Sequence record: NC_105512.1
Length of the DNA: 64,000 nt
Strand: one strand, 5' to 3'
From: Escherichia phage JLBYU43
Every line of letters begins with the position of its first letter. Position 1 is the stretch's first letter. Both the position numbers and the translations under genes were made by a program. Shown in pieces: positions 2,708 through 29,170 of this stretch. Under the pieces are notes generated by a model. It did not search any database. It was not told where the DNA came from and was given only the letters and a program-made list of their open reading frames with translations.

Positions 2708-2715
2708 TATATCAG

Positions 2716-5958: not shown

Positions 5959-5995
5959 GTGTTACTACATAAGTGATTTCCACACACCACTATTA

Positions 5996-6478
5996 CTAAC
6001 CAAAGTTAGTAAATTCTTTATGTAAGGATTCTCTTAATATCTTAGAGGCCTCGAAAGCCTCTTCCGCAGTTTTAAACCCTCTTTTACTGTAATTTTTTCC
6101 TTCATGTCTTACTTGGTATCTCCAGGAAGAGCCTTCCCAACTTACTCCTTTGTACCCAGAAGTATTATTGCATTGTTGGTTTCTATTCGCATTGTTTTGC
6201 GATCTAGAGGCGTCCCTTAGATTATTTTTCCTATTATTTCTAGGATTAGTATCCTTATGATCTACTTCTTCAGGCCTATATCCATAGTACATAATAAACA
6301 ATAAGACATGCAGTTGATAGGTGTCGCCCTGAAATCCCACATCTGGGTGTGATTTCTTATTATTGGCACAACACTCTTTCAAACCTTTCTTTGTTTTCCT
6401 ATATAGTACCCCATTATCAGGATCAGCTACAAAATATTTTTCAAGTATTTCTTTAGTAGGGTATTCTTTCCTTTTCAT
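5996..6478 (-). CDS. HNH homing endonuclease with AP2-like DNA-binding domain
   Basis: HNH motifs (HHKD.N..NN..NLR) followed by SGYKGVSWEGSSWRYQVRHEGKNYSKRGFKTAEEA; paralog of CDS 46900-47409. Confidence 0.75.
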   Translation of the reverse strand: MKRKEYPTKEILEKYFVADPDNGVLYRKTKKGLKECCANNKKSHPDVGFQGDTYQLHVLLFIMYYGYRPEEVDHKDTNPRNNRKNNLRDASRSQNNANRNQQCNNTSGYKGVSWEGSSWRYQVRHEGKNYSKRGFKTAEEAFEASKILRESLHKEFTNFG

Positions 6479-7663: not shown

Positions 7664-8485
7664 TTAAAATAGATCATATTCTAATCTATTGGGATTTTCT
7701 CGGTATCCATAAGACGTAAGGGTTCCTCTCATGTACTCTGCGTCAACAGGATTAGATGTTACTAGAACCACTTTTAGTGGTCTTTGACCTAAAAATAGTA
7801 TATGATCTAATAAATCTTTTCCTTGTACCTCTGGATCCCCTAAATCTGAGTCCATAAATAAATAGGATCCTGTGAAACTAAACATATCTGATAGTTCCAG
7901 CGCACCTATAACTGTACGACAAATAATGGACATTTCAGGTAGATCTCTAACATCGTCTATTAGAATATTGGTCTGCTTCCCAATTTCTGCATTACATAAA
8001 CCATTTACTAGTTTTTCTCTTTCCCCTTTAGCTTGTTCGAAAGTGGTGAAGCCAGGAGATACGAAAAACTTTCCACCTAATGTAATGCTATACGCAAAAC
8101 CCTCGGAGAGGAGTTCTACACCTACGGTTTTATCAGTATTAATCCTATTTAACTTAAAATTTGTCTCTCTTAGATTAAGAATTCTGTTATCCCACGGTAT
8201 GGTATTTATATGGTCGATCATATCAGGTGGCTCTTCACCATAATGGAGCAACCACGCTATTCGGTGCCCATAAATAATTGTGGGTTTATTACCTAAGAGC
8301 AAGCTAACTCTGATGTACCCATTAGAGTTCTTACTACATATTTCTCTCCCAGCATATAGGGTGTGCCAAGTTTTATTCTTGTATTTATTAGGCTTATAAA
8401 ATAATTTACCTGTATAAGGATTATATTCTATAATTTCTCGAATATAATCTATATATGATAGTATTTGTTTTTGTAATTTACCCAT
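7664..8485 (-). CDS. HNH endonuclease with C-terminal domain of unknown function
   Basis: N-terminal HNH_3-like region (NGYIRVSL..HRIAWLLHYG..DHIN..DNR..NLR); the C-terminal 150 aa are unassigned. Confidence 0.65.
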   Translation of the reverse strand: MGKLQKQILSYIDYIREIIEYNPYTGKLFYKPNKYKNKTWHTLYAGREICSKNSNGYIRVSLLLGNKPTIIYGHRIAWLLHYGEEPPDMIDHINTIPWDNRILNLRETNFKLNRINTDKTVGVELLSEGFAYSITLGGKFFVSPGFTTFEQAKGEREKLVNGLCNAEIGKQTNILIDDVRDLPEMSIICRTVIGALELSDMFSFTGSYLFMDSDLGDPEVQGKDLLDHILFLGQRPLKVVLVTSNPVDAEYMRGTLTSYGYRENPNRLEYDLF

Positions 8486-8515
8486 AATAGCCTCGTCTCA
8501 TCAATTTAAAAATAT

Positions 8516-8544
8516 ATTATATAGAAAACTAAACTAATTAGCAA
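8516..8544 (-). promoter_or_regulatory. sigma70-type promoter (TTGCTA-17-TATAAT)
   Basis: Reverse complement: TTGCTA, 17 nt, TATAAT, leader AAATTGATGAGACGAGG, then ATG of CDS 7664-8485. Confidence 0.6.
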
Positions 8545-8936
8545 ATACATTTTTAAATTGAGAGACTAGTAAACCGATAAACAGCCTAGAGGCGCCACAG
8601 GCCATATCTTATGAGCCATGTACCTTTGATCTAGGGTTTGAATCATCAACGAATACTTTGCATCTTTTAGCTTTAGAAGGTTAGAAGTTTGAGTGCTTTT
8701 AACTTTTCAGCTTTCATACTTGAGCGTTGATCTTTGAAGTTGTGTTGGTACTACCAACGACGTCTTGTTTTATTTTGACAGATGCAACATCTGCCGAAAA
8801 ATAAATTAAGATAATCTCCAATAGATTATACTGTATCTAGTATGGTCAGCGGTCTTATTTAACCTCGTATTTCAACCGCTGCTGCGAGGTAAGATGCTTG
8901 GGCTTTCGTCTACCGATTTACTAGTCTTTTAAATTA

Positions 8937-9575
8937 TTACTCTACTTCGATAAAAGTAGAGGCGTTGGACTCAGACAGAACAAAGTCAACGTTGGTTGCA
9001 AAGTCCTGGTATTCTTCGTCGTGTTGCTTGATCAGCTTTTCCAGCTCCAGCGGATCGATCAGGAACGGAGTGTTCTTGAGTTCCAGCAGGTTAAGCTGCA
9101 TCTTAACTTCATCCTCGGAAGTCTTCTTGTCGCGGGTAGCCATGGTATCCTGCAAACGCTCATACTTAGCATCAAACTGAGCTTTCTGAGTGTTAAACTT
9201 AACAGTAGCAGCATGGAACTGCTTACGCATGTTAGCCAGCAACTGAGCTTTGAGTTCCATAGAACGCTTAGCTTCGATTGCTTCCGCAACAGTCATAGAG
9301 CGCGAACCGATCTCTACAACAGTTTCAGCATTGCTCTTGATCAGCGCAGCTTTCAGACGATCACGCTGGGACATCATATCCAGCAGAGACTGGAAATCAG
9401 TCTTAATACGGGTAGACAGATCGTCTACTTCGATTGCAGCGCCAACTACAACCTGGTTCTTGTCCTTACCTTCACCAACAGCGATCAAAAGCTGTTGTTC
9501 AGTAGCTTTACGGATTTTAGCTTCCAGAGACTTGATAGTTGCCAGAGCACGAGTTTTAGAGATACGAGTAGTCAT
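8937..9575 (-). CDS. hypothetical protein, host-like codon usage (212 aa)
   Basis: ORF-track ORF; codon choice (CTG, CGT, GGT) resembles highly expressed E. coli genes. Confidence 0.6.
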   Translation of the reverse strand: MTTRISKTRALATIKSLEAKIRKATEQQLLIAVGEGKDKNQVVVGAAIEVDDLSTRIKTDFQSLLDMMSQRDRLKAALIKSNAETVVEIGSRSMTVAEAIEAKRSMELKAQLLANMRKQFHAATVKFNTQKAQFDAKYERLQDTMATRDKKTSEDEVKMQLNLLELKNTPFLIDPLELEKLIKQHDEEYQDFATNVDFVLSESNASTFIEVE

Positions 9576-9628
9576 TATTTGCTTCCTTATATGAAGTTTG
9601 AGATTTGAATTTGTTTAAATTTGGTCTA

Positions 9629-9811
9629 TTACAGACCAATTGCCAGCAGAGTGCGCAGAACAGTATCGTTACTGTTATCAATTTTAGGATTAGCACGATT
9701 TAGCAGATCAAAGATTTTCTGGATACCTGATTGACGTTCAGCCATACGACGGATACCCAGATTACGAGTAGCTTTCTTACCATTTTTACGAACATTTTTA
9801 GATACTGGCAT
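9629..9811 (-). CDS. hypothetical small basic protein (60 aa)
   Basis: ORF-track ORF directly downstream of the promoter at 9852-9880 with AGGAAAACAAAT leader. Confidence 0.45.
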   Translation of the reverse strand: MPVSKNVRKNGKKATRNLGIRRMAERQSGIQKIFDLLNRANPKIDNSNDTVLRTLLAIGL

Positions 9812-9851
9812 ATTTGTTTTCCTTTTATTGTTTTCTCAAATTTATGAATAT

Positions 9852-9880
9852 ATTATACAGAATTTTGGAGCCGGAAGCAA
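9852..9880 (-). promoter_or_regulatory. sigma70-type promoter (TTGCTT-17-TATAAT)
   Basis: Reverse complement: TTGCTT, CCGGCTCCAAAATTCTG, TATAAT. Confidence 0.6.
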
Positions 9881-9881
9881 A

Positions 9882-10583
9882 TCAAATTTTCATTTTTTCG
9901 ATCATAGCTGCAACACAATAGCTCTCAACTAGGGCATCGAATGCTGGGTCGTGCTTAACCGGATAGATCCCATAACGAATGGTGTCCATCTTCTCCATTT
10001 TAGCTATTGCCCAGCTAATACCTTCGGTTTCTAGAGCTTTATAACTATAGCCAGTTTGCATCCAGAGATTACGAAGAGATCTAACATTACCCAAGTTCCA
10101 GAATTTCCACGGAACTATTTCTTCATTGGTTCCAGCATGGAAAGTGTTTGCAGAGTAGATAGTCATATCAAACTCTGGGCCATTGCCATAATACAAAGCA
10201 TTTTCGCCTAGAGCCAACTCCATAATATTTTGAGCCATAGAGAAGGCAGCATGGTTAGAGCCAAGTTTATTAGTGCAATGATGTTTACCATTTTGGAAGG
10301 CAACCAGTTTTGGATTAGGCTCATTCATAGCTTCCATAATGTGGATAGCAGACGGGCTATGTTTAGCCTGATCCATCCAGAATGCTAGAGTAGATGCTGT
10401 AACTTTGGCACCAGAATTAAGTTGATCTTGTACATCTAAAGTAACAAATACTAGATCAGGGTCTTTATCAATTCCATGCATAGCCACAAAAGCGAATGAA
10501 GGCATTGCGATATGGGTAGTACCACAATCTCCTGGAGTTCCTAGAGATTCAATATCTAGCATACCAAATGGTTTTACTTTCAT
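9882..10583 (-). CDS. DEDD-family 3'-5' exonuclease (DnaQ/RNase T-like)
   Basis: Exo I-like motif MLDIESLG near the N-terminus and Exo III-like H..AFDA near the C-terminus. Confidence 0.55.
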   Translation of the reverse strand: MKVKPFGMLDIESLGTPGDCGTTHIAMPSFAFVAMHGIDKDPDLVFVTLDVQDQLNSGAKVTASTLAFWMDQAKHSPSAIHIMEAMNEPNPKLVAFQNGKHHCTNKLGSNHAAFSMAQNIMELALGENALYYGNGPEFDMTIYSANTFHAGTNEEIVPWKFWNLGNVRSLRNLWMQTGYSYKALETEGISWAIAKMEKMDTIRYGIYPVKHDPAFDALVESYCVAAMIEKMKI

Positions 10584-19637: not shown

Positions 19638-19666
19638 TTGACATAGTGGATAATGTTTAGTATAAT
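19638..19666 (+). promoter_or_regulatory. consensus sigma70 promoter (TTGACA-17-TATAAT)
   Basis: TTGACA at 19638-19643, 17-nt spacer, TATAAT at 19661-19666; first plus-strand promoter, divergent from the phoH promoter. Confidence 0.65.
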
Positions 19667-19693
19667 AGGTGTAAAAATTCTGTGGAGAAGGGG

Positions 19694-20558
19694 AATGCCG
19701 AAAAAATTAACTCAAGAAGAAGTAGATAAATGCCTAGCCGAACGTGGTTTTACTATGGTGGATAAGCCTTACCAAAATTCTAGGTATAGGCATACGTATC
19801 AGTGTGAATATGGTCATCAATGGACATCTAAATTTGATGCTATTAGGAATGGAAAGACCAATTGTCCTACTTGTTCTATTAATAGCCGTAAACTAGATAT
19901 CGATAAAATTAATACTGTATTACAGGGTAGGGGTATTACATTGTTGGAGGGCTATAAAAATAGTGCCGATATAAATACTAAATTTAGGTGTGTTTGTGGT
20001 CATGAGTGGGCTACTACACTTAATAGTATAATTAATAGAGGTAGTGGCTGCCCCTCTTGTGCTATTAATAAACAAAAACTTAGTATTAATACTATAAACG
20101 ATCGTCTTACTGCTAGGAATATTAGAATAGTAGGTGAATATAGTAATGCGAATATTAAGACCACCTTTCTCTGTGGTGCAGGGCATCAGTGGGAAGCTAC
20201 TCCAGGATCCGTGTTAGGAGGAAATGGTTGTCCTTACTGTAAGTATAGGGATTTAGAAAATACTAAGGTATATATTATGCATAGCCCTTCACATGGTGTT
20301 AAAATAGGAAGGTCTAACAATCCAGAGCGCAGACTTTTACATATTAAATCTAGTAGTCACCTTACTGATCTGGAAGTAATTAAAGTATTTGAAATTGGAG
20401 AATATAGTGATGCTGTTCAAATCGAAAAATTAGCTCATAATTACTTTAAAGAACAGAATTGCCAATACAAAGATTTTGATGGTGCTACGGAATTCTTCAA
20501 TATTGAGCCAGAAGTAGCTATAAAATTTATCGAGGAAATAATCAATGACAGAAAATGA
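19694..20558 (+). CDS. T5orf172-domain (GIY-YIG-like) protein with three N-terminal zinc-ribbon repeats
   Basis: Three tandem repeats each ending C..GH.W...(G)CP.C(S/A/K), then KIGRSNNPERRL...GATEFF. Start set at the ATG at 19694 after GGAGAAGGGG RBS. Confidence 0.7.
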
Positions 20559-22371
20559 ACTAATTGAAAATTGCAAAGGTTTACTTACTCTAACTGCTGA
20601 CAAAGACTTGCAGCATAATAATGCTAATAAACCTAGCGAGATGTTTCATACACAGAGGGACTTACTAGCTGGAGAAATCAACAAGTATTTAGTAGCACAA
20701 GAATTACCTAAACATTTATTAGACGCCCATAATCTAGGTAAAATACACATCCATGATATGGATTATAGAGCACAGGGGTACACTAACTGTTGTTTAGTAG
20801 ACCTAGGTGGTATGTTGAAAAATGGTACTAAAATTGGTAATGCGAATATTGAAACTCCTAAATCTATAACTACTGCATGTGCGATTACTGCTCAGATTAT
20901 TGCTCAGGTATCAGGCGCTCAGTATGGGGGTACTTCTATTGATCGTATTGATGAAGTTCTAGCTCCGTATGTTAGGAAGTCCTACAATAAACATCTGGGG
21001 CGTGGCCTACGTTGGCTTAAGGATGAGAGAAAAGCTGCTGTATATGCTACTGAACTTACTGAAAAAGAATGTTATGATGCATTCCAAGCTCTAGAGTATG
21101 AAACTAATTCATTATTTAACTCTAATGGGCAGACTCCTTTTATTACGCTGGGCTTTGGATTAGGGCAGGAGTGGGAGGAAAGGATGATTCAGAAAGCCAT
21201 CCTCCAAAATCGTATTAAAGGTTTAGGTGCTGCTGAGTCAACTCCTATCTTCCCTAAACTAGTATTCTCAGTTAAAGAAGGGTTAAATAAAAATCCAGGT
21301 GATCCTAACTATGATATAAAACAACTAGCACTTGAGTGTTCTGCTACTCGTATGTACCCAGACTATTTAAGTTACGAGAAAGTTGTAGCTGTTACTGGTG
21401 ATTTTAAAGCCCCTATGGGTTGTCGTAGTTTTTTATCTGCCATCCCCTCTGGAGAAATTGCAGGACGTAATAATTTAGGTGTTGTGTCTATCAATCTACC
21501 TATGGTTGCTGCTGAGGCAGATGGAGTTTTTGAAGATTTCTGGGATATTCTAGACAAATATGTGGATGAGGCTTTTGAAGCACATGACTTCTTCTTAAAC
21601 AGACTGAAGAAAGTTAAGGCTAAACAAGCCCCTATTCTTTATATGCACGGTGGTTTTGGTGTACGTTTAGAAGGAGAAGAATATGTATGGCCTATTTTTG
21701 AGGGTAGATCTTCTGTATCTCTTGGGTATATTGGGGTCTATGAGATGTGCCAAATAATGTTTAGTTTACCACAGACTCATAGGGACTGTATTGAATTTAC
21801 AGAGGAAGTTCTCACTCACCTAAAAAATCGTTGCGAAGTTAAAGCTACTGAAACTAATCTTGGGTTTAGCTTGTATGCTACTCCTAGTGAGTCTCTGTGT
21901 AATCGCTTTAATAAACTACTGGAGCGTAGATTCCCAGAGTATTCTTGGTTAGCAGATAAAGGTTATCTTACTAATAGCCATCATTTGGACGTGAGGGAGA
22001 AGGTAGCTCCAGATACTAAATTTGAGTATGAGGCTCATTTTACTAAAATAGCTAATGGTGGTAATATATCATTTGTGGAACTACCTCAAATGAAAAAGTT
22101 CCACAAAGCTCTTGAGTATGTGGTGGATAAGGGGCTAGAATGTAGTCATTATATTGGTGTTAATATACCAATTGATGAGTGCTTCAATTGTGGGTATATG
22201 GGTGAATCTATTGCTTCTGAGCGTGGGTTTGTATGTCCAAGTTGTGGGTCTGAAGAAATAGAGGTTACACGTAGGGTTTGCGGGTACCTGGGATCCCCTG
22301 GCAGTAGGCCTTTCAATTCTGGGAAACAAAAAGAAGTTCTTGGTAGAGTAAAACACTTAAATTTCAAGTAA
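20545..22371 (+). CDS. nrdD: anaerobic ribonucleoside-triphosphate reductase (class III)
   Basis: C-terminal zinc ribbon CFNCGYMG...CPSCGS followed by glycyl-radical motif RRVCGYLG. Confidence 0.85.
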   Translation: MTENELIENCKGLLTLTADKDLQHNNANKPSEMFHTQRDLLAGEINKYLVAQELPKHLLDAHNLGKIHIHDMDYRAQGYTNCCLVDLGGMLKNGTKIGNANIETPKSITTACAITAQIIAQVSGAQYGGTSIDRIDEVLAPYVRKSYNKHLGRGLRWLKDERKAAVYATELTEKECYDAFQALEYETNSLFNSNGQTPFITLGFGLGQEWEERMIQKAILQNRIKGLGAAESTPIFPKLVFSVKEGLNKNPGDPNYDIKQLALECSATRMYPDYLSYEKVVAVTGDFKAPMGCRSFLSAIPSGEIAGRNNLGVVSINLPMVAAEADGVFEDFWDILDKYVDEAFEAHDFFLNRLKKVKAKQAPILYMHGGFGVRLEGEEYVWPIFEGRSSVSLGYIGVYEMCQIMFSLPQTHRDCIEFTEEVLTHLKNRCEVKATETNLGFSLYATPSESLCNRFNKLLERRFPEYSWLADKGYLTNSHHLDVREKVAPDTKFEYEAHFTKIANGGNISFVELPQMKKFHKALEYVVDKGLECSHYIGVNIPIDECFNCGYMGESIASERGFVCPSCGSEEIEVTRRVCGYLGSPGSRPFNSGKQKEVLGRVKHLNFK

Positions 22372-22378
22372 GCTAATC

Positions 22379-22410
22379 AGCCAGGTTGCTAGTCGACCTG
22401 GCTTTTATTT
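22379..22410 (+). terminator. intrinsic terminator
   Basis: AGCCAGGT/ACCTGGCT 8-bp stem with 9-nt loop followed by TTTTATTTT, directly 3' of nrdD. Confidence 0.7.
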
Positions 22411-22413
22411 TAT

Positions 22414-22442
22414 TTGCTTTCAGCTAAAAATTTATGTATAAT
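22414..22442 (+). promoter_or_regulatory. sigma70-type promoter (TTGCTT-17-TATAAT)
   Basis: TTGCTT, TCAGCTAAAAATTTATG, TATAAT, then leader AGATTTATAAATTTAAGAGGAGGG. Confidence 0.65.
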
Positions 22443-22469
22443 AGATTTATAAATTTAAGAGGAGGGTAT

Positions 22470-22829
22470 ATGAAATTAAAACCATTTATTGTTGTATCTA
22501 AACTAGGGCATTATCACGTAGGAGTAGATACAATTCAGGAAGCTATTTTTGCTGCTACAGGTGATTACTCATTACTAGAAGGTATTGGGTATCCTACACT
22601 ACTAGGCGACTTCGTAGAGCAAGAACTAGATATTACTGTCTATAATCCTATATATGAAGAACCTGAATACTTAAAAGAGACTCTAGAATTTGTATATTGG
22701 AACCACTTACAAGTATTTAATGTTACCTCTAATGGCACAGAGGATTTCTCTTCTGTTATTAAATGCCATATTAAACAAGTTTACTACGATTATTTCTACG
22801 AGGATATTGGAGCGGAGCTAAAAGTATGA
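22470..22829 (+). CDS. hypothetical protein (119 aa)
   Basis: Start set at the ATG after GAGGAGGG RBS (MKLKPFIVV...); the ORF-track start lies inside the promoter. Confidence 0.55.
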   Translation: MKLKPFIVVSKLGHYHVGVDTIQEAIFAATGDYSLLEGIGYPTLLGDFVEQELDITVYNPIYEEPEYLKETLEFVYWNHLQVFNVTSNGTEDFSSVIKCHIKQVYYDYFYEDIGAELKV

Positions 22830-23029
22830 AAAACGTAAAACATCTTAAATATCGCTTAATTTACAACGGACGTATGGAAACAGAAGATCTAGCACAGCTA
22901 GCGATCAATTCAGATGAAGTTACAGTTCGTGCTTTGTCCATTGAGAAGCTGCGTGCTTCTTACGAAAATCGTATTATGGAATTAGAGGAGAAACTTTATG
23001 GCATTCTCGAGTCAGAAGCTACCAAGTGA
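22826..23029 (+). CDS. hypothetical protein (67 aa)
   Basis: ORF-track ORF, ATGA overlap with the upstream gene. Confidence 0.45.
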   Translation: MKNVKHLKYRLIYNGRMETEDLAQLAINSDEVTVRALSIEKLRASYENRIMELEEKLYGILESEATK

Positions 23030-23243
23030 AAATGTTAGTCTTATTGACCTGAGTAAACTCAATGTAGAGTTTCAGGGGGTTTTAATGAAGCACTGGGAAA
23101 CTGGCTATAAGGATGGTGTTGAATCCTGTGCTACTATGCTAGAATTTATTGCTAATACCTTAGTGGAGAAAGGCAATAAAGAATTAGCTGAGCTGTTAGA
23201 CAGTATTGGGCAAAACTTCAGAGAGCAGGTGAAAAATGCGTAG
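22998..23243 (+). CDS. hypothetical protein (81 aa)
   Basis: ORF-track ORF with GGAG RBS; overlaps both neighbours. Confidence 0.45.
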   Translation: MAFSSQKLPSENVSLIDLSKLNVEFQGVLMKHWETGYKDGVESCATMLEFIANTLVEKGNKELAELLDSIGQNFREQVKNA

Positions 23244-24012
23244 ACTAATCATTGTTAGTGGTGCTGGTTTAAGTGTTGATAGTGGTATCCGTGCATTCCG
23301 TACAGATACTGCTAGTGGTAAAGCAATGTGGGACGAGTACGATCTAGAAGAGGTGTGTGATATTCATGCTTTTCGTGGCCAGTTCTACTGGAAAACCCAC
23401 GAGTTCTACAACAAGCGTCGTCAGGAGTTGCGGACTGTTGAACCTAACATTGCGCACCTTCGTATTGGGGAATGGTTCCAGCGGTATCCAGAAGCGGTAC
23501 TAAACATTACTACTAACGTAGATGACTTGCTGGAAAGAGCTGGTGTGCCGAAAAGTGAGGTTCTCCACGTTCATGGCTATTTACCGGAAGTTCGTATTAA
23601 GGAATTGCCAGACCGAAAAGAGTACATCCTAGATGTGGGCTATACTGCTATTGATCCTGATGAATTTTATTGGGCAAAGCCTAACGTTGTATTCTTTGGT
23701 GAAGCAGCCCCCGAATATGCTCTGATGCATGCCACTTTTGATAGTCTTACAGCTAACGATATGGTTATCGTGGTTGGGTGTAGTAACCAAGTTATCAACT
23801 TCAACTGGGAACTTTTTCCTGCACTAGCTCGTGGTACTAAGATGATGGTTGTTAACCCAACTATTAACTACTTGGAACAATCCCTGTACGAAGAGCGTGG
23901 TGTTACTGTATGGCGTGCTGGGGCTGCCGAAGTTTTCGGTAACAAACACTTTATTGGCCAGGTAGAAGCTTTTATGGAAGGAACTATTTATGCCCCAGAA
24001 AAGCATGTGTGA
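23236..24012 (+). CDS. Sir2-family (sirtuin-like) NAD-binding protein
   Basis: N-terminal GAGLSVDSGIRAFR matches the sirtuin NAD-binding signature GAG(I/L)S..SGIP.FR; 258 aa is compatible with a single Sir2 domain. Confidence 0.6.
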   Translation: MRRLIIVSGAGLSVDSGIRAFRTDTASGKAMWDEYDLEEVCDIHAFRGQFYWKTHEFYNKRRQELRTVEPNIAHLRIGEWFQRYPEAVLNITTNVDDLLERAGVPKSEVLHVHGYLPEVRIKELPDRKEYILDVGYTAIDPDEFYWAKPNVVFFGEAAPEYALMHATFDSLTANDMVIVVGCSNQVINFNWELFPALARGTKMMVVNPTINYLEQSLYEERGVTVWRAGAAEVFGNKHFIGQVEAFMEGTIYAPEKHV

Positions 24013-24152
24013 TCTTTTAGTATGGCCGGACGGTAGTTGGTGCTACCGTTTCGAATTTGCTACCGATGACTTCTCATGGAAAAGTGATGATTTCTGCGTT
24101 ATCTAAGAGGATACAGCAGAATGGAAAGAGTTCCTTATTAAGGAGGGAGAGT

Positions 24153-24338
24153 ATGGTGAAGAAGATTTTTAAGGGTATCTGGAAGGGTCTATTATGGTTT
24201 GTCAACCTAATCGGTATGATTACCATTTATTCTCTGTTCCTATCTGTTATGTGGGGTAAAGGTGAACTGAAGGTTCCAGTTCCTTTTACTGATGAAGTTA
24301 AAGTCTGGACGTGGGATGCTACTGGTGGAAATAAGTAA
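24153..24338 (+). CDS. small membrane protein (61 aa)
   Basis: Start set at the ATG after AAGGAGGGAGAG RBS; hydrophobic segment GLLWFVNLIGMITIYSLFLSVMW. Confidence 0.45.
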   Translation: MVKKIFKGIWKGLLWFVNLIGMITIYSLFLSVMWGKGELKVPVPFTDEVKVWTWDATGGNK

Positions 24339-24528
24339 TACTCCTGTGATTTTCCTGGATATTGATGGGGTGCTCAATTCGAGCATCTCTCACCATCATG
24401 CTCGAGATAATGAAAAGCTGTTCTTTGGCAGTGATTGGGTTTATAAGCCATTACTCCAGGCTTTTCAGAACTTCCTCAAACCTTCTCCAATAATGATTGT
24501 TGGGGTATCTTCATGGTTTTCTGTATGA
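24316..24528 (+). CDS. HAD-like phosphatase, N-terminal part (ends at in-frame TGA)
   Basis: Contains FLDIDGVLN, resembling HAD motif I (DxDG); ORF ends at TGA 24526-24528, in the same frame as the next ORF. Confidence 0.4.
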   Translation: MLLVEISNTPVIFLDIDGVLNSSISHHHARDNEKLFFGSDWVYKPLLQAFQNFLKPSPIMIVGVSSWFSV

Positions 24529-24534
24529 AATGAA

Positions 24535-24831
24535 ATGGAGAACGTTCAGATTATGACCGGACTCGGTTTGATCGATCGTTTTCTTGGTACAACAGATTTT
24601 ACTGGAGGTGGTTTATCTAGGGGTAATTCTGTTTTACGTTTTGTCGAAAAATATAAGCTCAAACATTGGTGTGTGCTGGATGATGCCGGTGCTATGATGT
24701 ATCAGTATCCAACGGTTATAGTCAATGGTAGAACTGGGATAAATCTTCAAGATTTAAGAGCTGTTAGCTATATGTTAGAATTTAGTCCAGATCTTGAAAT
24801 GTGTAAAGCCCTACAGCAATTTAAGGTGTAA
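24535..24831 (+). CDS. HAD-like phosphatase, C-terminal part
   Basis: Begins 6 nt after the TGA in the same frame; KYKLKHWCVLDDAG resembles HAD motifs III/IV. Confidence 0.4.
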   Translation: MENVQIMTGLGLIDRFLGTTDFTGGGLSRGNSVLRFVEKYKLKHWCVLDDAGAMMYQYPTVIVNGRTGINLQDLRAVSYMLEFSPDLEMCKALQQFKV

Positions 24832-24833
24832 AT

Positions 24834-25262
24834 ATGTTTAATAATGTATTCTCTAAAGAAGCTAACCCAATTTTGGTTAACTTTTGGCGTACTCTCCCAG
24901 CTAGCCTGTATAATGAGGCTATTAACTCTTTGAAAATATGGTGTGAGAATAACGAAATCTCCTTTGCTTTTAAAGATGATATTGATGAGGCCCCTTGTAT
25001 TGGTTTAATTGTTCAGGTAGAGGAGGGTCTTGAAGAGATTGTCGGCTGGAAAGAGTTAGATGAAATGGGCTTAGTTTTTGCATTAAATTATAAGCTGTTT
25101 ATGCCTGCTAAGCATCGCCTCGTTGTTAACTATAAAACTAGTGAGTCTCCTGGTTTTCAGGTTAATGAACGTGAGGGCTGGTCATATTCGCCCGAGGAAG
25201 TAAATGAAGGGATTCAGAAACTTCGTCGTTTCGGGTATATGATCCCAGGTTTAACTGCTTAA
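24834..25262 (+). CDS. hypothetical protein, paralog A (142 aa)
   Basis: ORF-track ORF; C-terminal 80 aa align with CDS 25272-25667 (W.EL..MGL..A.N...F.P......ESP..QV......Y.......G...R.G...PGL). Confidence 0.55.
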   Translation: MFNNVFSKEANPILVNFWRTLPASLYNEAINSLKIWCENNEISFAFKDDIDEAPCIGLIVQVEEGLEEIVGWKELDEMGLVFALNYKLFMPAKHRLVVNYKTSESPGFQVNEREGWSYSPEEVNEGIQKLRRFGYMIPGLTA

Positions 25263-25271
25263 GGAGGCAGA

Positions 25272-25667
25272 ATGGAACAAGTATTTTGGCGTCAGATAGA
25301 TCCTAGTTTGGTAGAGCGTGCTGAGGGGCTCCTTGCACATTGGTTGGGGGTTGACAAGGTTAGTGTAACATTTCCGTTTACTTCTGTAACAGACCCTAGT
25401 GTAGGTGTATTTGTGGACGAAGATGAAGATGATGGTTGGGAAGCTGACTGGAATGAATTGTCCAGCATGGGCTTGATTGTTGCCATCAACTTCTCTATAT
25501 TCCATCCACGTGGCTTAGCCATTACACGTGACCCCGAAACTGGTGAATCCCCTTATCTTTTGCAAGTAGAAGATGATATTTGGGAGTACACCGAAGATAT
25601 TCTCGAAGAAGCTAAAGGTCAATTAAATCGCATTGGGATCTATGTTCCAGGCCTAAATGATGATTGA
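25272..25667 (+). CDS. hypothetical protein, paralog B (131 aa)
   Basis: ORF-track ORF with AAGGAGG RBS; paralogous to CDS 24834-25262. Confidence 0.55.
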   Translation: MEQVFWRQIDPSLVERAEGLLAHWLGVDKVSVTFPFTSVTDPSVGVFVDEDEDDGWEADWNELSSMGLIVAINFSIFHPRGLAITRDPETGESPYLLQVEDDIWEYTEDILEEAKGQLNRIGIYVPGLNDD

Positions 25668-25758
25668 TTTTCATTAGCCCAATCCTGATTACCGAGTCAT
25701 TTTGGCTCGGTTTTCTCTGTGCTCAAAGACACTGATAGCACCTTCGTAAAAAATTTTG

Positions 25759-25787
25759 TTGCACGATGCTCAAAATCTTGGTATAAT
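25759..25787 (+). promoter_or_regulatory. sigma70-type promoter (TTGCAC-17-TATAAT)
   Basis: TTGCAC at 25759-25764, 17-nt spacer, TATAAT at 25782-25787; followed by about 590 nt without a credible ORF. Confidence 0.55.
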
Positions 25788-26380
25788 ATTTATATTGAAT
25801 TGAGAGACATTAGTAAAAATTGATTTTGCTAATTTTTCTTAGTGAAGCTGACAATGGATTTACGGCGAGAGTGGTCGATGACCCGTAAATAGCTGCATAA
25901 GGTACGTTGCTAGAGCTTTATGAAAAAGTTTTTCTTGTTTACAATCCGCGATACGGAACAGTTAGGCTGCCCCATTAAGGGTTGTTTTAACTATTACTAG
26001 TGTTTATATTGCATTAGTTAATCTTCAATTAAGTGATCTGTGTACCCTGAATTCGGAAAGGTAAATCCAAACCGTGCATATTTAGCTCGTTATATAGGCA
26101 GAGCTTTATATGGGGGTGCGAACGAAAAGAGCAGCGAATGGCGGCACGTACAGTAGTCACCTACCAATAGGATAGCGAGGACAAATAGAATCGGCTTAGC
26201 GGCCAATGACCTAGGTTCTATTCTGTATATGAGCGAAGAGAGCACAGCACTGAGATATGATAACTTATTCATATTGTTTGATGATAATTGATGTTTACGT
26301 AAATAGTAGTAATAGTTGTTCTATTCTTTCTGAATAGTCCTAAAGAAAAGATTTCGATTAATCAACACAGGAGTATTGTT

Positions 26381-29170
26381 GTGTTTTCTATCCTCCAAGG
26401 TCACGCCGGGTTTTCTCGTGATTTAGCAACAGGTATTTGGCGAGAAATCAAAGCGGAAGATTATACCTTTGCCAAACGATTCTCGAAAGAGCATCCAGAA
26501 GGTAAACCAGCTTCTATGCCCTTCAAATTTGATGTAATAGAAGAGCACGACCCACAAAGCCTTGCTGAAATGTTACCACTTATGAGACGTTTAACGTCTG
26601 ACCCTCATATCGTTGTGGTACGAGGTCGATGTCTTGCACCTAAAAATAATGTGCGACGTAAGAAAGGTAACTTTAATGTATCCAACCCTAGCAATATTAT
26701 TGCTATGGACGTGGATGGTATCCTGGATACCGGTGGGTACGACAAGTTTAATCTTGTAGGTATGGCCCGTCACATTATTAAGATGTTGAATAGTATTAGT
26801 GAGGACATGTTTCCTCTTGATGCAGGGTTTATTGCTCATGCATCGTCTTCGGCTGGCCTAAAACCAGGTATCCGAATGCACTTAATGCTAGAATCTAACG
26901 TCAAGGTAACTCAAGGTCAGTTAAAGTTCTTATTTACGTCTATCAATGATAGTAGTAAGCAAAAATTCGGTTTTGATATTGCCGACTTAGCTTATTATTC
27001 ATCTGTCCAGCTTCACTATTTTGCCGACCCTTTATTTAGCGATGGTATTGTTGATCCGTTTAAAGCGGAGAGTAAGCCACGTCTGGTGTATGTTAAAGGT
27101 TCGAAAGTAAATTTGCCTAATAATCTGGTTGACTATGAAACAACTAGAGGGGAGTTTAAGGAAGAGTTTTATTCTTTACTTGATCAAATTAAAGGCAAAA
27201 AGATTGCTTCTGATAAAGTAGAAGAAACCATCAGCGAATTGGAAGAAGCTGAGGATGGGGTGTACTTGCGTATTATCCCCAAACTATACCATAGAGCATT
27301 AGAGGATGGTGTTGATTTCGCATGGCTAGAACGTGAGATTAAACCCGCTTTATCTGAATATATTGCAACTAAAGATAACAGTCGTAATATTCAAGATTAC
27401 TTTAATAACGGTCGTAAGCAGGCTCTCAAAGCGTTTGTTAATAATTCTAAACGCGAGATTCCATTAAATCTGAAAGGTGTTCCTCTTAAGAAATTAGAAG
27501 TGGATTCTCCACCAGAAGTTCCATACCTGAAGATTAACATTGTGCCCCCAAAAGGGCATATAACATTTGTTAAGGCAAGTCTTGGTACTGGCAAAACTAC
27601 GGCAGTAACTAAATGGCTGGACGCAGGTGTTCTTCCTGGCAACTTTTTAGCAGTTACAAATACTAGAGCGCTGGTATCTTCAAACGCTAAGAAATTTAGC
27701 GCAGGACAATATGATAAGTCTGTAGATATGCTCAACTTTAAACGTGGAGCTATTGATCGTATGTCCACAACTATTCACTCTTTGCATAAGTTCAAGAGTT
27801 TTATTGGTCAAATTGATGCAATCTTTATCGATGAATGTGATGCTGTAATGAATGACCTATTATTCGCCCCGGTTGTTAAACAGCGTCGTGAATGTATTCA
27901 AGTTCTACGTGACATCCTCATGACAGCTAAAACTGTAATTCTATCAGATGGTGATATTAGTGCCGAAACTATTGAAGCATATGGTTCTCTAATTGATTTT
28001 GATAAACCAGTAGCATTTTATAATCATCACCGTAAAATGCTGTCAAAAGCTCATGCTTATGAGTTCCCTGACGAATCCAGTATTTGGGTTGCACTTCAAA
28101 CATCTCTAGAGATGGGTGAGAAGTCAATCCTAGTATCTGACTGTGGACCTGATGAATTAAATGAAAAGGGAATGGCATTACGTCGTAATACCGGTGCGTT
28201 AGTTAAAGAAATTCACTCAAACTCTACGTCTGATGTAGATATCCGACGTATTCTGGATTATACAACTAATGAGCTAATTGATCAACAGATTGATTGTTTG
28301 TTATGTAGTCCATCTGTAACGAGTGGTGTTGACTTTAACTATTTTGATAACGTATTCGTAATCACTAGAACCTCAAACCAAGCGCCAAACATGCGTTTCC
28401 AAGCAATCAGGCGCGACCGTGGTGCTCAGAACATTTATTATTTTATTGATAAATCTACGAGTGGATTTTCTGCAGGTTCCGAGCAATATAATATTGACGA
28501 GGGTTGGATTGAGTTAGCCCAACAACTGTACGCACGTCGTCGTGAGCTGGAATCTAGAAACTATACCAGTACTTTGCGTTATTATCTTCTCGATCAAGGT
28601 GCAACTATTGATATCTTCAGTGAAAGCTGGGGGACTATCGAAGGTGCAGGCAAAGAGTATACAGAAGAGCGAATCAAAGCCATTTTGTATTCAACTCCTG
28701 ATTATTGTGCTCCACGCCATGCAGATGCGTATGAAGCTAAACTACTTCTTGTTCGCTATTATCATCTTGAGTCTATTAAAGATGTAACAGTTGAGCATGT
28801 TGAGCAATATATCAAGGATAAACCTAATGATCGAGCTGCATTCTTCCATAAAATGCACGAGATGTTCTGGGAAGATATTAAGAAGTGTTCAAATGTCACT
28901 ATCAAACCATTCATAGAAGCTCTGAAAGGTAAGAAGAAAGATTTCTTCCTTAAAACAGGTCAGAGTGCTAACCCAAAATACGCCAGAATGTATCTTGGTA
29001 TGATGGGTATTGGTAAGGATATGAACACGGAGAATATTGTAGACTGGTACAGAACCTATTGTAAAATCGAATGTATGCCAATCCCGTATAAGTTTATGAC
29101 TGATGAGGAGAAACATATGCATGATGAAGCAATGGCAGAGCTAGGCGCTAGAAATGACAGTGAAGAATAA
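26381..29170 (+). CDS. P-loop NTPase, putative replication initiation or helicase-like protein (929 aa, GTG start)
   Basis: Walker A SLGTGKTTAV and DExD-like Walker B IFIDECDAV in the central region; ACAGGAG RBS before the GTG start. Confidence 0.7.
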   Translation: MFSILQGHAGFSRDLATGIWREIKAEDYTFAKRFSKEHPEGKPASMPFKFDVIEEHDPQSLAEMLPLMRRLTSDPHIVVVRGRCLAPKNNVRRKKGNFNVSNPSNIIAMDVDGILDTGGYDKFNLVGMARHIIKMLNSISEDMFPLDAGFIAHASSSAGLKPGIRMHLMLESNVKVTQGQLKFLFTSINDSSKQKFGFDIADLAYYSSVQLHYFADPLFSDGIVDPFKAESKPRLVYVKGSKVNLPNNLVDYETTRGEFKEEFYSLLDQIKGKKIASDKVEETISELEEAEDGVYLRIIPKLYHRALEDGVDFAWLEREIKPALSEYIATKDNSRNIQDYFNNGRKQALKAFVNNSKREIPLNLKGVPLKKLEVDSPPEVPYLKINIVPPKGHITFVKASLGTGKTTAVTKWLDAGVLPGNFLAVTNTRALVSSNAKKFSAGQYDKSVDMLNFKRGAIDRMSTTIHSLHKFKSFIGQIDAIFIDECDAVMNDLLFAPVVKQRRECIQVLRDILMTAKTVILSDGDISAETIEAYGSLIDFDKPVAFYNHHRKMLSKAHAYEFPDESSIWVALQTSLEMGEKSILVSDCGPDELNEKGMALRRNTGALVKEIHSNSTSDVDIRRILDYTTNELIDQQIDCLLCSPSVTSGVDFNYFDNVFVITRTSNQAPNMRFQAIRRDRGAQNIYYFIDKSTSGFSAGSEQYNIDEGWIELAQQLYARRRELESRNYTSTLRYYLLDQGATIDIFSESWGTIEGAGKEYTEERIKAILYSTPDYCAPRHADAYEAKLLLVRYYHLESIKDVTVEHVEQYIKDKPNDRAAFFHKMHEMFWEDIKKCSNVTIKPFIEALKGKKKDFFLKTGQSANPKYARMYLGMMGIGKDMNTENIVDWYRTYCKIECMPIPYKFMTDEEKHMHDEAMAELGARNDSEE

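What the first reader, a model, noticed from the sequence alone, without database searches (positions are those of the whole stretch)
23236..25667. Accessory gene cluster headed by a Sir2-domain protein
A plus-strand block between nrdD and the replication genes encodes a sirtuin-like protein (GAGLSVDSGIRAFR), a 61-aa membrane protein, a HAD-like phosphatase whose frame is broken by one in-frame TGA, and two tandem paralogs of unknown function. None is needed for a replication or nucleotide-metabolism pathway. Sir2 domains are NAD-consuming effectors in several bacterial defence systems (Thoeris ThsA, DSR, Sir2-HerA), so a phage-borne copy could be a counter-defence, a host NAD-manipulating function or a protein-modifying enzyme. 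This is the most plausible place in the window for an uncharacterised functional module.
Basis: partly seen in the sequence, partly recalled or inferred. Interest (0 to 1): 0.6.

Follow-up and report, generated by a model that had tools for sequence, protein, structure and literature searches.

The report
T5 phage sirtuin–HAD accessory operon
This is the well-conserved T5.102–T5.107 accessory gene block of T5-like phages, a zinc-less CobB-like sirtuin with an RNA-repair-type HAD phosphatase and two DUF7415 proteins; it was already annotated and computationally predicted to be an NAD-dependent RNA-repair module, and in this genome two of its genes carry private stop-codon mutations.

Summary
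Window 23236-25667 (+) encodes:
- a Sir2-family protein (PF02146, E 1e-23);
- a 61-aa single-pass membrane protein;
- a HAD_SAK_2 phosphatase broken by an in-frame TGA;
- two tandem DUF7415 paralogs.

The window is a T5-like phage, and the block is T5.102–T5.107, present in about 450 sequenced phages. It is the distal part of one operon (promoter 22415-22443, terminator 25691-25711).

The sirtuin is a canonical class III, CobB/SIRT5-like enzyme. All catalytic residues are invariant and the zinc ribbon is missing. It matches no defence-system model, so the analogy to Thoeris/DSR/Sir2-HerA is not supported.

Iyer et al. 2022 (PMC9503650) already described the sirtuin + "Swiss-army-knife" HAD pair in T5-like phages. 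They predicted a KptA-like, NAD-dependent RNA-end repair system. I found no experimental test of this.

- The TGA is a private CGA→TGA nonsense change.
- A second private nonsense change (TAT→TAA) truncates the small ORF after Sir2.
- HAD is dispensable: it is absent from Klebsiella T5-likes and deleted in DT57C. Sir2 + 2×DUF7415 is the more conserved set.
- PHROG/RefSeq mislabel the HAD gene as "Sir2".

Verdict: real, ordinary and already known; the function remains untested.

The parts
22379..22403 (+). Intrinsic terminator ending the nrdD transcription unit, at the upstream boundary of the block
   Evidence: 10-bp stem with 6 GC pairs followed by a T-run. T5 annotates a terminator at the equivalent place.
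22415..22443 (+). Sigma-70 type promoter (TTGCTT, 17 nt, TATAAT, with TG before the -10) that drives the operon
   Evidence: Read directly from the sequence. T5 annotates a promoter between nrdD and T5.100. Function is inferred, not shown.
22470..22829 (+). First gene of the operon, 119 aa, T5.100-like, unknown function
   Evidence: phrog_11748 E 1e-62, aligned from residue 13 of the longer ORF. An RBS, aagaggaggg, lies upstream of ATG 22470. No Pfam, NCBIfam or PADLOC hit.
22826..23029 (+). 67-aa ORF, T5.101-like, unknown function
   Evidence: phrog_5236 E 3e-46. 87-100% identical in T5-like loci.
22998..23243 (+). 81-aa ORF overlapping the Sir2 start; variable, absent from T5
   Evidence: phrog_5827 E 3e-28. 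Present in MSP1, L056 and L057. No T5 match by tblastn.
23236..24012 (+). Phage sirtuin (T5.102 homolog), 258 aa: class III CobB/SIRT5-like, catalytic set intact, no zinc ribbon
   Evidence: PF02146 E 1e-23. Best PDB sequence hit is E. coli CobB 1s5p, E 4e-18. AF2 pLDDT 89.7. Foldseek top hits are CobB at E 2e-17, TM 0.76/0.86. Invariant in 38 phage homologs: G9 A10 G11 S16 G17 F21 R22 Y58 R61 N94 D96 H113 F153 F154 E156 S183 N207. Only 2 Cys. No PADLOC hit.
23990..24106 (+). T5.103-like small ORF (WPDGSWC motif) overlapping the Sir2 stop; truncated to 38 codons by TAT→TAA at 24104-24106
   Evidence: Alignment with MSP1 and L002, which have TAT and a 60-aa ORF. A 60-aa gene is called in L056 and L057, genomes with an identical Sir2. 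A homologous overlapping ORF follows Sir2 in unrelated contigs L015 and L017. No known family.
24153..24338 (+). 61-aa single-pass membrane protein (T5.104 homolog), unknown function
   Evidence: phrog_11166 E 6.5e-44. One hydrophobic segment, pI 9.7. Absent in Kenya-K37 and STyj5-1, where Sir2 abuts HAD.
24325..24831 (+). HAD_SAK_2 phosphatase gene (T5.105 homolog), 168 codons, interrupted at codon 68
   Evidence: PF18143 hits on both halves. Intact 168-aa homologs occur in MSP1, T5 and most of 469 phage records. Motif I FLDIDGV (D12, D14) and VLDDAG are present. dN/dS 0.06-0.10 in window pairs, the same as among intact relatives.
24526..24528 (+). In-frame TGA: a private nonsense mutation of a conserved Arg codon (CGA in MSP1, AGG in T5)
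   Evidence: Direct comparison. No phage record is identical over the surrounding 81 nt; the best are 80/81. IMG/VR has 0 contigs with TGA and 25 with an Arg codon. HAD is intact in the three genomes with an identical Sir2.
24834..25262 (+). DUF7415 protein a (T5.106 homolog), 142 aa, acidic
   Evidence: PF24187 E 5e-36, two domain matches. phrog_2502. pI 4.69.
25272..25667 (+). DUF7415 protein b (T5.107 homolog), 131 aa, very acidic; tandem paralog of the previous gene
25691..25711 (+). Intrinsic terminator closing the operon
   Evidence: 9-bp stem with 5 GC pairs plus a T-run. T5 annotates a terminator after T5.107.

Best explanation
Identity (shown). The region is the T5.102–T5.107 part of a conserved, dispensable operon of T5-like phages (Demerecviridae), located between nrdD and the origin-binding helicase gene.

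Its enzymatic core has two parts.
(i) A phage-specific sirtuin of the class III CobB/SIRT5 type. It keeps the NAD pocket, the Asn/Asp/His catalytic set and the anion-binding Tyr-x-x-Arg pair. It has lost the zinc ribbon.
(ii) A small HAD phosphatase of the 'Swiss-army-knife RNA-repair' family (HAD_SAK_2).

Mechanism (inferred, following Iyer et al. 2022). The pair heals damaged RNA ends, most plausibly tRNAs cut by host anticodon nucleases. The HAD enzyme would remove or resolve terminal 2'/3' phosphates, or dephosphorylate the ADP-ribose-phosphate by-product. The sirtuin would use NAD+ to take off a 2'-phosphate. In that reaction the phosphate oxygen attacks C1'' of NAD, nicotinamide leaves, and the ribose 2''-OH, activated via His113, releases ADP-ribose-1'',2''-cyclic phosphate. 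This is chemically parallel to both Tpt1/KptA and to sirtuin deacylation. Ligation would have to be done by a host enzyme, because T5-likes encode no T4-type RNA ligase.

The two DUF7415 proteins are co-located, acidic, internally duplicated proteins of unknown role, and they are separable from the pair.

In this particular genome the HAD gene and the small ORF after Sir2 each carry a private nonsense mutation. If the stops are real, only the sirtuin and the DUF7415 genes remain intact.
For: Identity:
- 448 phage records match the block by DNA, and the annotation of T5 and MSP1 maps gene for gene.

Sirtuin type:
-.
- In the CobB alignment, Y58/R61 align with the residues I number Y92/R95 and H113 with H147. 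The CobB numbering is from my own knowledge of the sequence.

RNA-repair link:
- The HAD is PF18143 HAD_SAK_2.
- HAD_SAK_2 homologs in the Aeromonas T4-like phages Aeh1 and PX29 lie upstream of RNA ligase rnlA, separated from it by nrdA.1 and denA, and near a CCA-adding enzyme.
- Sir2 homologs 55-65% identical to the window protein sit near a T4-type RNA ligase and a calcineurin-like phosphoesterase in L010. In Klebsiella phage BIS47 the ligase (57332-58237) and Sir2 (59279-60025) are about 1 kb apart.
- This reproduces the neighbourhoods published in PMC9503650 section 3.7.3.

Pairing of the two genes:
- Sir2 and HAD overlap by 20 nt with nothing between them in Kenya-K37 and STyj5-1.
- They are removed together by one deletion in DT57C.
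- No macro-domain gene is adjacent, which argues against a toxin-antitoxin type sirtuin.

Other:
- The window carries 11 tRNA genes, so tRNA integrity is plausibly under selection. This last point is inference.
- Operon structure.
- Private nonsense codons.
Against: - No sirtuin has ever been shown to act on RNA. The RNA-repair role is a neighbourhood-based prediction only.
- The sirtuin retains everything a lysine deacylase needs, including the FGE loop and the YxxR pair that binds succinyl/malonyl groups in SIRT5 and CobB.
- It is acidic (pI 5.2, net charge about -11), which is unusual for an RNA-binding enzyme.
- T5-like phages lack a T4-type RNA ligase. None is in the 64-kb window, and T5-likes are essentially missing among 726 ligase-bearing records.
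- HAD is not an obligate partner. It is absent from the Klebsiella T5-like phage vB_Kpn13-P1 and from L014, frameshifted in PMBT26, and nonsense-mutated here while Sir2 stays 100% identical to MSP1.
- Sir2 occurs in 999 phage records against 469 for HAD.
- Conserved gene order within one phage family is weak evidence for functional coupling.
- Within this window the block is a recombination mosaic.
Confidence: 0.4

Rival explanations
1. The sirtuin is simply a protein lysine deacylase, CobB-like and possibly desuccinylase-leaning because of its YxxR pair. It would remodel the acylation state of host or phage proteins (for example RNA polymerase, acetyl-CoA synthetase or replication proteins) early in infection. 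HAD and the other genes would be unrelated neighbours.
For: - Closest sequence and fold relatives are all deacylases: CobB, Sir2Af1/2 and SIRT5.
- Every catalytic and NAD-binding residue, the FGE loop and the Y58-x-x-R61 pair are invariant in the phage clade.
- NCBIfam's best hits are the CobB and deacylase models.
- Sir2 is far more widespread than HAD (999 vs 469 phage records). It persists intact where HAD is lost or broken.
- A deacylase role has been proposed for the related zinc-less sirtuins of Vibrio phages (PMC5107563).
Against: - The scores to the CobB models are far below their curated cutoffs (109 vs 243 bits).
- The zinc module that shapes the peptide cleft is gone.
- The CobB Val-Tyr-Pro substrate-staple motif reads Val-Ile-Asn here. 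This rests on my own alignment reading and is weak.
- Recurrent genomic linkage of this clade with RNA ligase and phosphoesterase genes in unrelated phages (PMC9503650) is not explained by a protein deacylase.
Confidence: 0.3
2. The sirtuin is an NAD-consuming or NAD-signal-directed counter-defence or host-shutoff factor. It would deplete or divert NAD+, or destroy NAD-derived immune signals, to blunt Thoeris, DSR, Sir2-HerA or similar systems, or to exclude competing phages.
For: - Sirtuin chemistry can yield NADase activity.
- The gene is accessory and shows strongly divergent alleles among otherwise similar T5-like genomes. Only about 20 of 999 records are more than 80% identical to the window allele and most T5-likes are 60-68% identical, while HAD is 87-98% identical. 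Such allele turnover is often seen in conflict genes.
Against: - No similarity to any defence SIR2 model.
- No SLOG, TIR, HerA, pAgo or macro partner nearby.
- T5-like phages use an NAD-dependent DNA ligase (my own knowledge), so wholesale NAD depletion would be self-harming.
- nrdD next door shows the same two-allele pattern (60% vs 98%), so allele divergence here reflects regional mosaicism rather than something specific to Sir2.
Confidence: 0.1
3. There is no five-gene functional module. The block is a hyperplastic accessory region in which independent small genes have accumulated between two conserved anchors (nrdD and the origin-binding helicase). Their co-occurrence reflects shared descent only.
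For: - Gene content between the anchors varies: T5 lacks orf81; Kenya-K37 lacks T5.103 and T5.104; the Klebsiella T5-like lacks HAD; My1 has one DUF7415; DT57C lacks Sir2 through HAD.
- Recombination breakpoints fall inside the block.
- HAD_SAK_2 in T4-like phages has no Sir2 neighbour.
- DUF7415 occurs in quite different contexts elsewhere.
Against: - Direct 20-nt overlap of Sir2 and HAD in some phages.
- Single promoter-to-terminator unit.
- HAD and DUF7415 also flank rnlA within about 2.5 kb in Aeromonas T4-like phages. By my own estimate, the chance of such proximity in a 222-kb genome is about 2%; this is a post hoc figure.
- The Sir2-then-DUF7415 order is kept even in the most divergent Demerecviridae examined.
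Confidence: 0.2

Closest known systems
Phage sirtuin + 'Swiss-army-knife-like' HAD neighbourhood (type 3 of Iyer, Burroughs, Anantharaman & Aravind 2022, Viruses 14:1977; prototype Escherichia phage SP15)
   Same: Same phage group (T5-like), same two gene families (phage-clade sirtuin PF02146 and HAD_SAK_2 PF18143) in the same order, and no macro-domain partner. By every sequence criterion I could test, the window block is an instance of this published neighbourhood.
   Different: Here the HAD gene carries a nonsense codon. Two small ORFs (one truncated) lie between the pair. The paper does not, in the text I read, discuss the DUF7415 paralogs or the fact that a whole branch of T5-likes lacks HAD. 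The predicted activity is untested.
E. coli CobB / human SIRT5 (class III sirtuin deacylases)
   Same: Same fold (TM 0.76-0.86). Shared GAGxS, TxNxD and HG catalytic motifs, FGE loop, and the Tyr-x-x-Arg pair.
   Different: Only about 25-27% identity. Falls well below the NCBIfam CobB cutoffs. The zinc-binding cysteines are lost. It lacks the basic N-terminal extension that CobB has (my own knowledge of the CobB sequence, not tested) and is acidic overall. It is phage-restricted: among the top database hits, every one that carries a virus name is a phage protein, a few are labelled as Salmonella or E. coli, and most have no name.
Tpt1/KptA RNA 2'-phosphotransferase
   Same: Proposed functional analogue. 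It consumes NAD+, releases nicotinamide and forms an ADP-ribosylated intermediate that collapses through the ribose 2''-OH. It acts in tRNA repair and splicing.
   Different: Unrelated fold (ADP-ribosyltransferase superfamily). No sequence similarity. The analogy is chemical and contextual only, and nothing here tests it.
Defence-associated SIR2 NADases (ThsA, DSR1/2, SIR2-HerA, SPARSA)
   Same: Same broad superfamily. All consume NAD.
   Different: No PADLOC model matches. No sensor or partner domains. The gene is encoded by a lytic phage inside an operon of replication and nucleotide-metabolism neighbours. The catalytic architecture is that of deacylases.
T4 polynucleotide kinase/phosphatase (Pnkp) with Rnl1
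   Same: A phage system that heals anticodon-nuclease damage. Its 3'-phosphatase domain is also a DxDxT HAD-superfamily enzyme (my own knowledge). HAD_SAK_2 genes lie near rnlA in Aeromonas T4-likes.
   Different: The window block has no kinase domain and no ligase. The HAD here is a stand-alone 168-aa protein with no detectable sequence relative in the PDB.

Membership tests
Sirtuin / Pfam SIR2 (PF02146) | Profile match above the curated threshold | tested here: met
   84.5 bits vs cutoff 24, E 1.1e-23, covering profile positions 1-178 of 180.
Sirtuin / Pfam SIR2 (PF02146) | NAD-binding GAGxSxxSGIxxFR motif and the catalytic Asn, Asp and His | tested here: met
   G9-A10-G11, S16, G17, F21, R22, N94, D96 and H113 are invariant in 38 phage homologs. 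They align to the same motifs of CobB.
Sirtuin / Pfam SIR2 (PF02146) | Cys4 zinc-ribbon small domain | tested here: not met
   Only two cysteines (C41, C182), neither in the ribbon region. The CobB Cys positions align to non-Cys residues. The same loss is reported for KVP40 and Vibrio phage sirtuins (PMC5107563).
Class III sirtuins (CobB/SIRT5) | Tyr-x-x-Arg pair that binds acidic acyl groups | tested here: met
   Y58 and R61 are invariant. They align with the FYNARR segment of CobB. Equating these with CobB Y92/R95 rests on my own knowledge of CobB numbering.
Class III sirtuins (CobB/SIRT5) | Equivalog-level similarity to CobB (NCBIfam) | tested here: not met
   Best score is 109 bits against a cutoff of 243 (NF001753), and 91 against 320 (NF040867).
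Class III sirtuins (CobB/SIRT5) | NAD-dependent lysine deacylase activity | not testable with these tools
   Needs an enzyme assay.
Defence-associated SIR2 effectors (ThsA, DSR, SIR2-HerA, SPARSA) | Match to defence-system SIR2 profiles | tested here: not met
   No PADLOC family at E ≤ 0.01. No defence SIR2 among the top 50 Foldseek PDB hits.
Defence-associated SIR2 effectors (ThsA, DSR, SIR2-HerA, SPARSA) | Fused or adjacent sensor/partner (SLOG, TIR, HerA, pAgo, large C-terminal domain) | tested here: not met
   A single-domain 258-aa protein. Its neighbours are small ORFs, HAD and DUF7415.
Phage sirtuin RNA-repair neighbourhood, type 3 (Iyer et al. 2022) | Phage-clade sirtuin with a SAK-type HAD phosphatase gene in a conserved neighbourhood | tested here: met
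   Sir2 at 23236-24012 and HAD_SAK_2 at 24325-24831, same strand and same operon. The order is conserved in T5, MSP1, My1 and others.
Phage sirtuin RNA-repair neighbourhood, type 3 (Iyer et al. 2022) | Both genes intact | tested here: not met
   HAD has TGA at codon 68.
Phage sirtuin RNA-repair neighbourhood, type 3 (Iyer et al. 2022) | No adjacent macro-domain gene (distinguishes it from sirtuin-macro toxin-antitoxin pairs) | tested here: met
   No macro domain among the Pfam hits of the nine operon ORFs scanned; the truncated T5.103-like ORF was scanned via its MSP1 homolog.
Phage sirtuin RNA-repair neighbourhood, type 3 (Iyer et al. 2022) | RNA 2'-phosphate removal or RNA-end healing activity | not testable with these tools
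   A prediction only. I found no experimental paper.
HAD superfamily, HAD_SAK_2 (PF18143) | Profile match | tested here: met
   The N-terminal fragment scores 35.2 bits (cutoff 27.5) and the C-terminal fragment 22.8 bits; together they cover profile positions 1-54 and 70-138. Intact homologs carry PF18143.
HAD superfamily, HAD_SAK_2 (PF18143) | Motif I DxDx(T/V) nucleophile and a C-terminal acidic motif | tested here: met
   FLDIDGV (D12, D14) and VLDDAG (D119, D120) are present. Assigning the second to motif IV is my inference.
DUF7415 (PF24187) | Profile match | tested here: met
   123 and 96.8 bits against a cutoff of 27, with two domain matches in each protein.

The most novel reading that the evidence does not exclude
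The phage-specific, zinc-less sirtuin clade may be the first sirtuin that works on nucleic acid. It would be an NAD-dependent RNA 2'-phosphotransferase (a Tpt1/KptA analogue), using its conserved Tyr-Arg anion pocket for a phosphate instead of a succinyl group. It would act with the HAD_SAK_2 phosphatase, and possibly with the DUF7415 proteins, which also sit beside RNA ligase in Aeromonas T4-like phages. Together they would restore tRNAs cut by host anticodon-nuclease defences. T5-likes would then complete the repair with a host ligase.
Probability: 0.25. Interest if true: 0.7.

Novelty: already known. Interest (0 to 1): 0.22.

Why it matters
Sirtuins of this clade are found in about 1,000 sequenced phages: T5-like, rV5-like, Phapecoctavirus/Mydovirus-like, jumbo and Vibrio phages. 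No one appears to have tested what they do. If the published RNA-repair prediction is right, it would extend sirtuin chemistry to RNA and add a new counter-measure against tRNA-cleaving immunity. If the enzyme is a deacylase, it would be a case of phage control over the host acyl-proteome.

The present window adds nothing fundamentally new to that question. It does offer some practical points.
- It supplies natural genotypes that are useful as controls: this phage, with HAD and T5.103 nonsense-mutated and Sir2 intact, and DT57C, with Sir2 through HAD deleted.
- HAD is dispensable to the sirtuin.
- Sir2 + 2×DUF7415 is the more conserved set across Demerecviridae.
- There is a propagating annotation error: phrog_18062 and RefSeq label the HAD gene 'Sir2'.

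Tried and rejected
- Defence-type SIR2 membership: rejected. There are no PADLOC hits, and sequence and fold place it with CobB and SIRT5.
- Programmed read-through or recoding of the TGA: rejected as the default reading.
  - None of the 11 tRNAs in the window has a UCA anticodon.
  - The codon is Arg in all relatives examined.
  - No other record or IMG/VR contig carries the TGA.
  - Low-level natural UGA read-through, or re-initiation at ATG 24535 six nt downstream, cannot be excluded.
- Long-standing pseudogene: rejected. dN/dS on the window lineage is as low as among intact genes.
- General poor sequence quality as the cause of the stops: unlikely but not excluded. Both lesions are base substitutions, and the flanking 608-aa nrdD and 929-aa helicase ORFs are intact.
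- HAD against PDB sequences: only spurious His-tag/TEV-linker matches.
- Rfam scan of 22000-27000: nothing credible.
- Looking up the truncated HAD C-terminal product in public assemblies: not on record.
- Pfam, NCBIfam and PADLOC on the small ORFs (T5.100, T5.101, orf81, T5.103, T5.104): no families.
- Sir2 adjacent to HAD_SAK_2 in T4-like phages: not found.
- T4-type RNA ligase in the window: not found.
- Minus-strand ORFs in the region are short (≤84 aa), overlap the plus-strand genes and run against the GC skew. I treated them as spurious.

Full report
**What the window is**

Megablast of 22400-26400 finds 448 phage records, all T5-like (Salmonella and Escherichia Demerecviridae). The best is Phage MSP1 at 94.4% identity. 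Gene for gene, the region corresponds to T5.100–T5.107 of the T5 reference genome. It lies between nrdD (T5.099) and the replication-origin-binding helicase (T5.108).

**Checking the observation**

- Sir2: 23236-24012, 258 aa, PF02146 E 1e-23.
- 61-aa protein: 24153-24338, one hydrophobic segment.
- HAD gene: both halves hit PF18143 'HAD domain in Swiss Army Knife RNA repair proteins'. The frame is interrupted by TGA at 24526-24528.
- Two DUF7415 (PF24187) paralogs: 24834-25262 and 25272-25667, about 31% identical to each other.

Corrections and additions:
- The HAD gene starts at GTG 24325 (T5: MEISNTP…), not at ATG 24292. It has 168 codons, and the stop is at codon 68.
- A further small ORF (23990-24106) overlaps the Sir2 stop, as T5.103 does in T5.
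- The block is the distal part of a single transcription unit. A TTGCTT-17-TATAAT promoter lies at 22415-22443, just after the nrdD terminator (22379-22403). Three small ORFs precede Sir2. A strong terminator at 25691-25711 follows the second DUF7415 gene. T5 carries annotated signals at the same places.

Pairwise dN/dS of 0.03-0.25 for the genes tested shows they are real, selected genes.

**The stop codons**

The TGA is a single C→T change of a conserved arginine codon: CGA in MSP1 and AGG in T5.
- None of 436 phage records is identical over the surrounding 81 nt; the best are 80/81.
- In IMG/VR, 25 contigs carry an Arg codon in this context and none carries TGA.
- The three public genomes that encode a Sir2 protein identical to the window's all have an intact HAD of 168-171 aa.

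A second private nonsense change, TAT→TAA at 24104-24106, shortens the T5.103-like ORF from 60 to 38 codons.

HAD dN/dS on window pairs (0.06-0.10) is the same as among intact relatives (0.04-0.14). The lesion is therefore recent, an error, or tolerated. Both changes are substitutions, and the large flanking ORFs are intact, so I treat them as real mutations pending re-sequencing. No UGA-suppressor tRNA is among the 11 tRNAs of the window.

**What kind of sirtuin**

The nearest solved sequences are E. coli CobB (E 4e-18), archaeal Sir2Af1/2 and SIRT5. An AlphaFold model (pLDDT 89.7) superposes best on CobB (Foldseek E 2e-17, TM 0.76/0.86), then on Sir2Af and SIRT5. No defence SIR2 appears among the top 50 hits.

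In an alignment of 38 phage homologs, these residues are invariant:
- the NAD-binding GAG…S16 G17…F21 R22;
- the catalytic N94, D96 and H113;
- the FGE loop (F153, F154, E156);
- S183 and N207;
- the pair Y58/R61.

In the CobB alignment, Y58/R61 fall on the FYNARR segment. From my own knowledge of CobB numbering, these are Y92/R95, the class III pair that binds acidic acyl groups.

The protein has only two cysteines and no zinc ribbon. This trait was already noted for KVP40 and Vibrio phage sirtuins (PMC5107563). It scores far below the NCBIfam CobB cutoffs (109 vs 243 bits) and hits no PADLOC defence model. Among the top database relatives, the hits that carry a virus name are phage proteins; a few are labelled as Salmonella or E. 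coli, and most carry no name. 999 phage records encode a homolog.

So it is a phage-specific, zinc-less, catalytically complete class III-like sirtuin. It is not a ThsA/DSR/HerA-type effector.

**What is already published**

T5.102 is annotated as Sir2 in the T5 reference. Iyer, Burroughs, Anantharaman and Aravind (Viruses 2022; PMC9503650, section 3.7.3) state that most viral sirtuins form a distinct clade found in three conserved neighbourhoods. [quoted passage not shown]

They predict that the sirtuin acts like KptA/Tpt1. It would remove RNA 2'-phosphates with NAD+, and the associated phosphoesterases would prepare the ends or process the ADP-ribose-phosphate by-product. Some GenBank records already label the HAD gene 'RNA repair protein' or 'HAD domain… for RNA repair or re-ligation'. 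I found no experimental study of any phage sirtuin of this clade.

**Independent tests of that prediction**

For:
- Sir2 homologs 55-65% identical to the window protein lie near a T4-type RNA ligase and a calcineurin-like phosphoesterase in contig L010. In Klebsiella phage BIS47 the ligase and Sir2 are about 1 kb apart.
- HAD_SAK_2 homologs in the Aeromonas T4-like phages Aeh1 and PX29 lie upstream of rnlA, separated from it by nrdA.1 and denA, and close to a CCA-adding enzyme.
- In Kenya-K37 and STyj5-1, Sir2 and HAD overlap by 20 nt with no intervening genes.
- DT57C lost both genes in one deletion that fuses the Sir2 N-terminus to the HAD C-terminus.

Against:
- T5-likes have no T4-type RNA ligase.
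- HAD_SAK_2 in T4-likes has no Sir2 neighbour.
- The sirtuin is acidic (pI 5.2) and keeps all deacylase features.
- HAD is not obligatory. The Klebsiella T5-like phage vB_Kpn13-P1 has nrdD – small ORF – Sir2 – DUF7415 – DUF7415 – helicase, with no HAD. L014 also lacks HAD. PMBT26 has a frameshifted HAD. The window has the nonsense codon.

Sir2 is thus more widespread (999 records) than HAD (469 records).

**Mosaicism**

Relative to MSP1, Sir2 and DUF7415b are nearly identical (dS 0.006 and 0.012). HAD (dS 0.45) and DUF7415a (dS 1.1, closer to T5's allele) are not. At the protein level the window's Sir2 allele is rare. About 20 records are more than 80% identical, and the bulk of T5-likes are 60-68% identical. 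HAD, by contrast, is 87-98% identical everywhere. nrdD shows a similar two-allele pattern. This is regional recombination rather than something peculiar to Sir2, and it argues against the five genes being a co-adapted cassette.

**DUF7415**

A profile search of 1.84 billion representative proteins finds only 160 relatives. Most are a stand-alone core domain of about 55 aa. Some are fused to a thymidylate kinase or a dATP/dGTP pyrophosphohydrolase.

In Aeh1 and PX29 a DUF7415 gene lies immediately after rnlA, with HAD_SAK_2 three genes upstream. In Proteus phage PM2 one lies immediately after nrdD. The domain therefore keeps company with both RNA-repair and nucleotide-metabolism genes, and I cannot assign it a function. 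It survives in DT57C without Sir2 and HAD, so it is at least partly independent.

**Conclusion**

The finding is real but ordinary. It is a known, widely conserved, dispensable operon of T5-like phages, and its sirtuin–HAD core already has a published, untested functional prediction.

I adopt that prediction as the most likely mechanism with modest confidence (0.4). A plain protein deacylase is a close rival (0.3). An NADase or counter-defence role is unlikely (0.1). The view that the five genes are not a single module is a serious caveat (0.2).

This particular genome carries private nonsense mutations in HAD and in the T5.103-like ORF, while Sir2 and the DUF7415 genes are intact.

Noticed in passing
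window 24535-24831; T5 reference T5.105 (L019 4001-4507): Annotation error that propagates. PHROG family phrog_18062 (92 aa) is labelled 'Sir2 (NAD-dependent deacetylase)', but it is the C-terminal half of the HAD_SAK_2 phosphatase. As a result RefSeq T5.105 and many T5-like records list two 'Sir2' genes.
   Followed up: yes
window 24104-24106: A second private nonsense mutation (TAT→TAA) truncates the T5.103-like small ORF to 38 codons, only 420 nt upstream of the HAD TGA. Two stop-creating substitutions in adjacent genes of one operon are unexplained; the cause could be relaxed selection, laboratory history or sequencing error.
   Followed up: partly
window 23990-24106; L015 816-1001; L017 6719-6949: A small ORF with a V-W-P-D-G-x-W-C motif overlaps the 3' end of the sirtuin gene both in T5-likes and in an unrelated ~90-kb phage lineage. 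This suggests a conserved Sir2-associated micro-protein. No family is known.
   Followed up: partly
window 19653-20558 (+): A 301-aa ORF immediately upstream of, and overlapping, the nrdD start has treble-clef zinc fingers (DUF4379, CapR) and a T5orf172/MUG113 (GIY-YIG-like) domain. It is a probable homing endonuclease inserted before nrdD and is absent at this position in T5.
   Followed up: partly
window 20545-22371 (nrdD): nrdD exists as two deeply divergent alleles among otherwise similar T5-like phages. It is about 98% identical to DT57C and L005 but only about 57-62% identical to T5, MSP1 and others. The adjacent homing-endonuclease ORF may be relevant.
   Followed up: no
window 25712-26380: A ~670-nt non-coding stretch lies between the operon terminator and the origin-binding helicase gene. 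It contains a near-consensus promoter (TTGCAC…TGgTATAAT around 25760-25790), which gives a long 5' leader. There is no Rfam match. T5 annotates a promoter in the equivalent place.
   Followed up: no
window 642-5393 (-): A cluster of 11 tRNA genes: Met×2, Pro, Gly, Lys, Asn, Cys, Glu, Tyr, Ser, Arg. None is a suppressor.
   Followed up: partly
L058 (Klebsiella phage vB_Kpn13-P1) 3501-5262; L014 5995-7657: Divergent Demerecviridae keep Sir2 followed directly by DUF7415 gene(s), with no HAD between them. Sir2 + DUF7415 is therefore the ancestral or most conserved arrangement, and HAD looks like an insertion in the Markadamsvirinae/My1 branch.
   Followed up: partly
L024 (Aeh1) 3649-6210; L022 (PX29) 7968-10535: In Aeromonas T4-like phages the order is td – HAD_SAK_2 – DUF4326 (nrdA.1) – denA – rnlA – DUF7415. 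Two of the T5-block families thus flank RNA ligase 1 in an unrelated phage family.
   Followed up: partly
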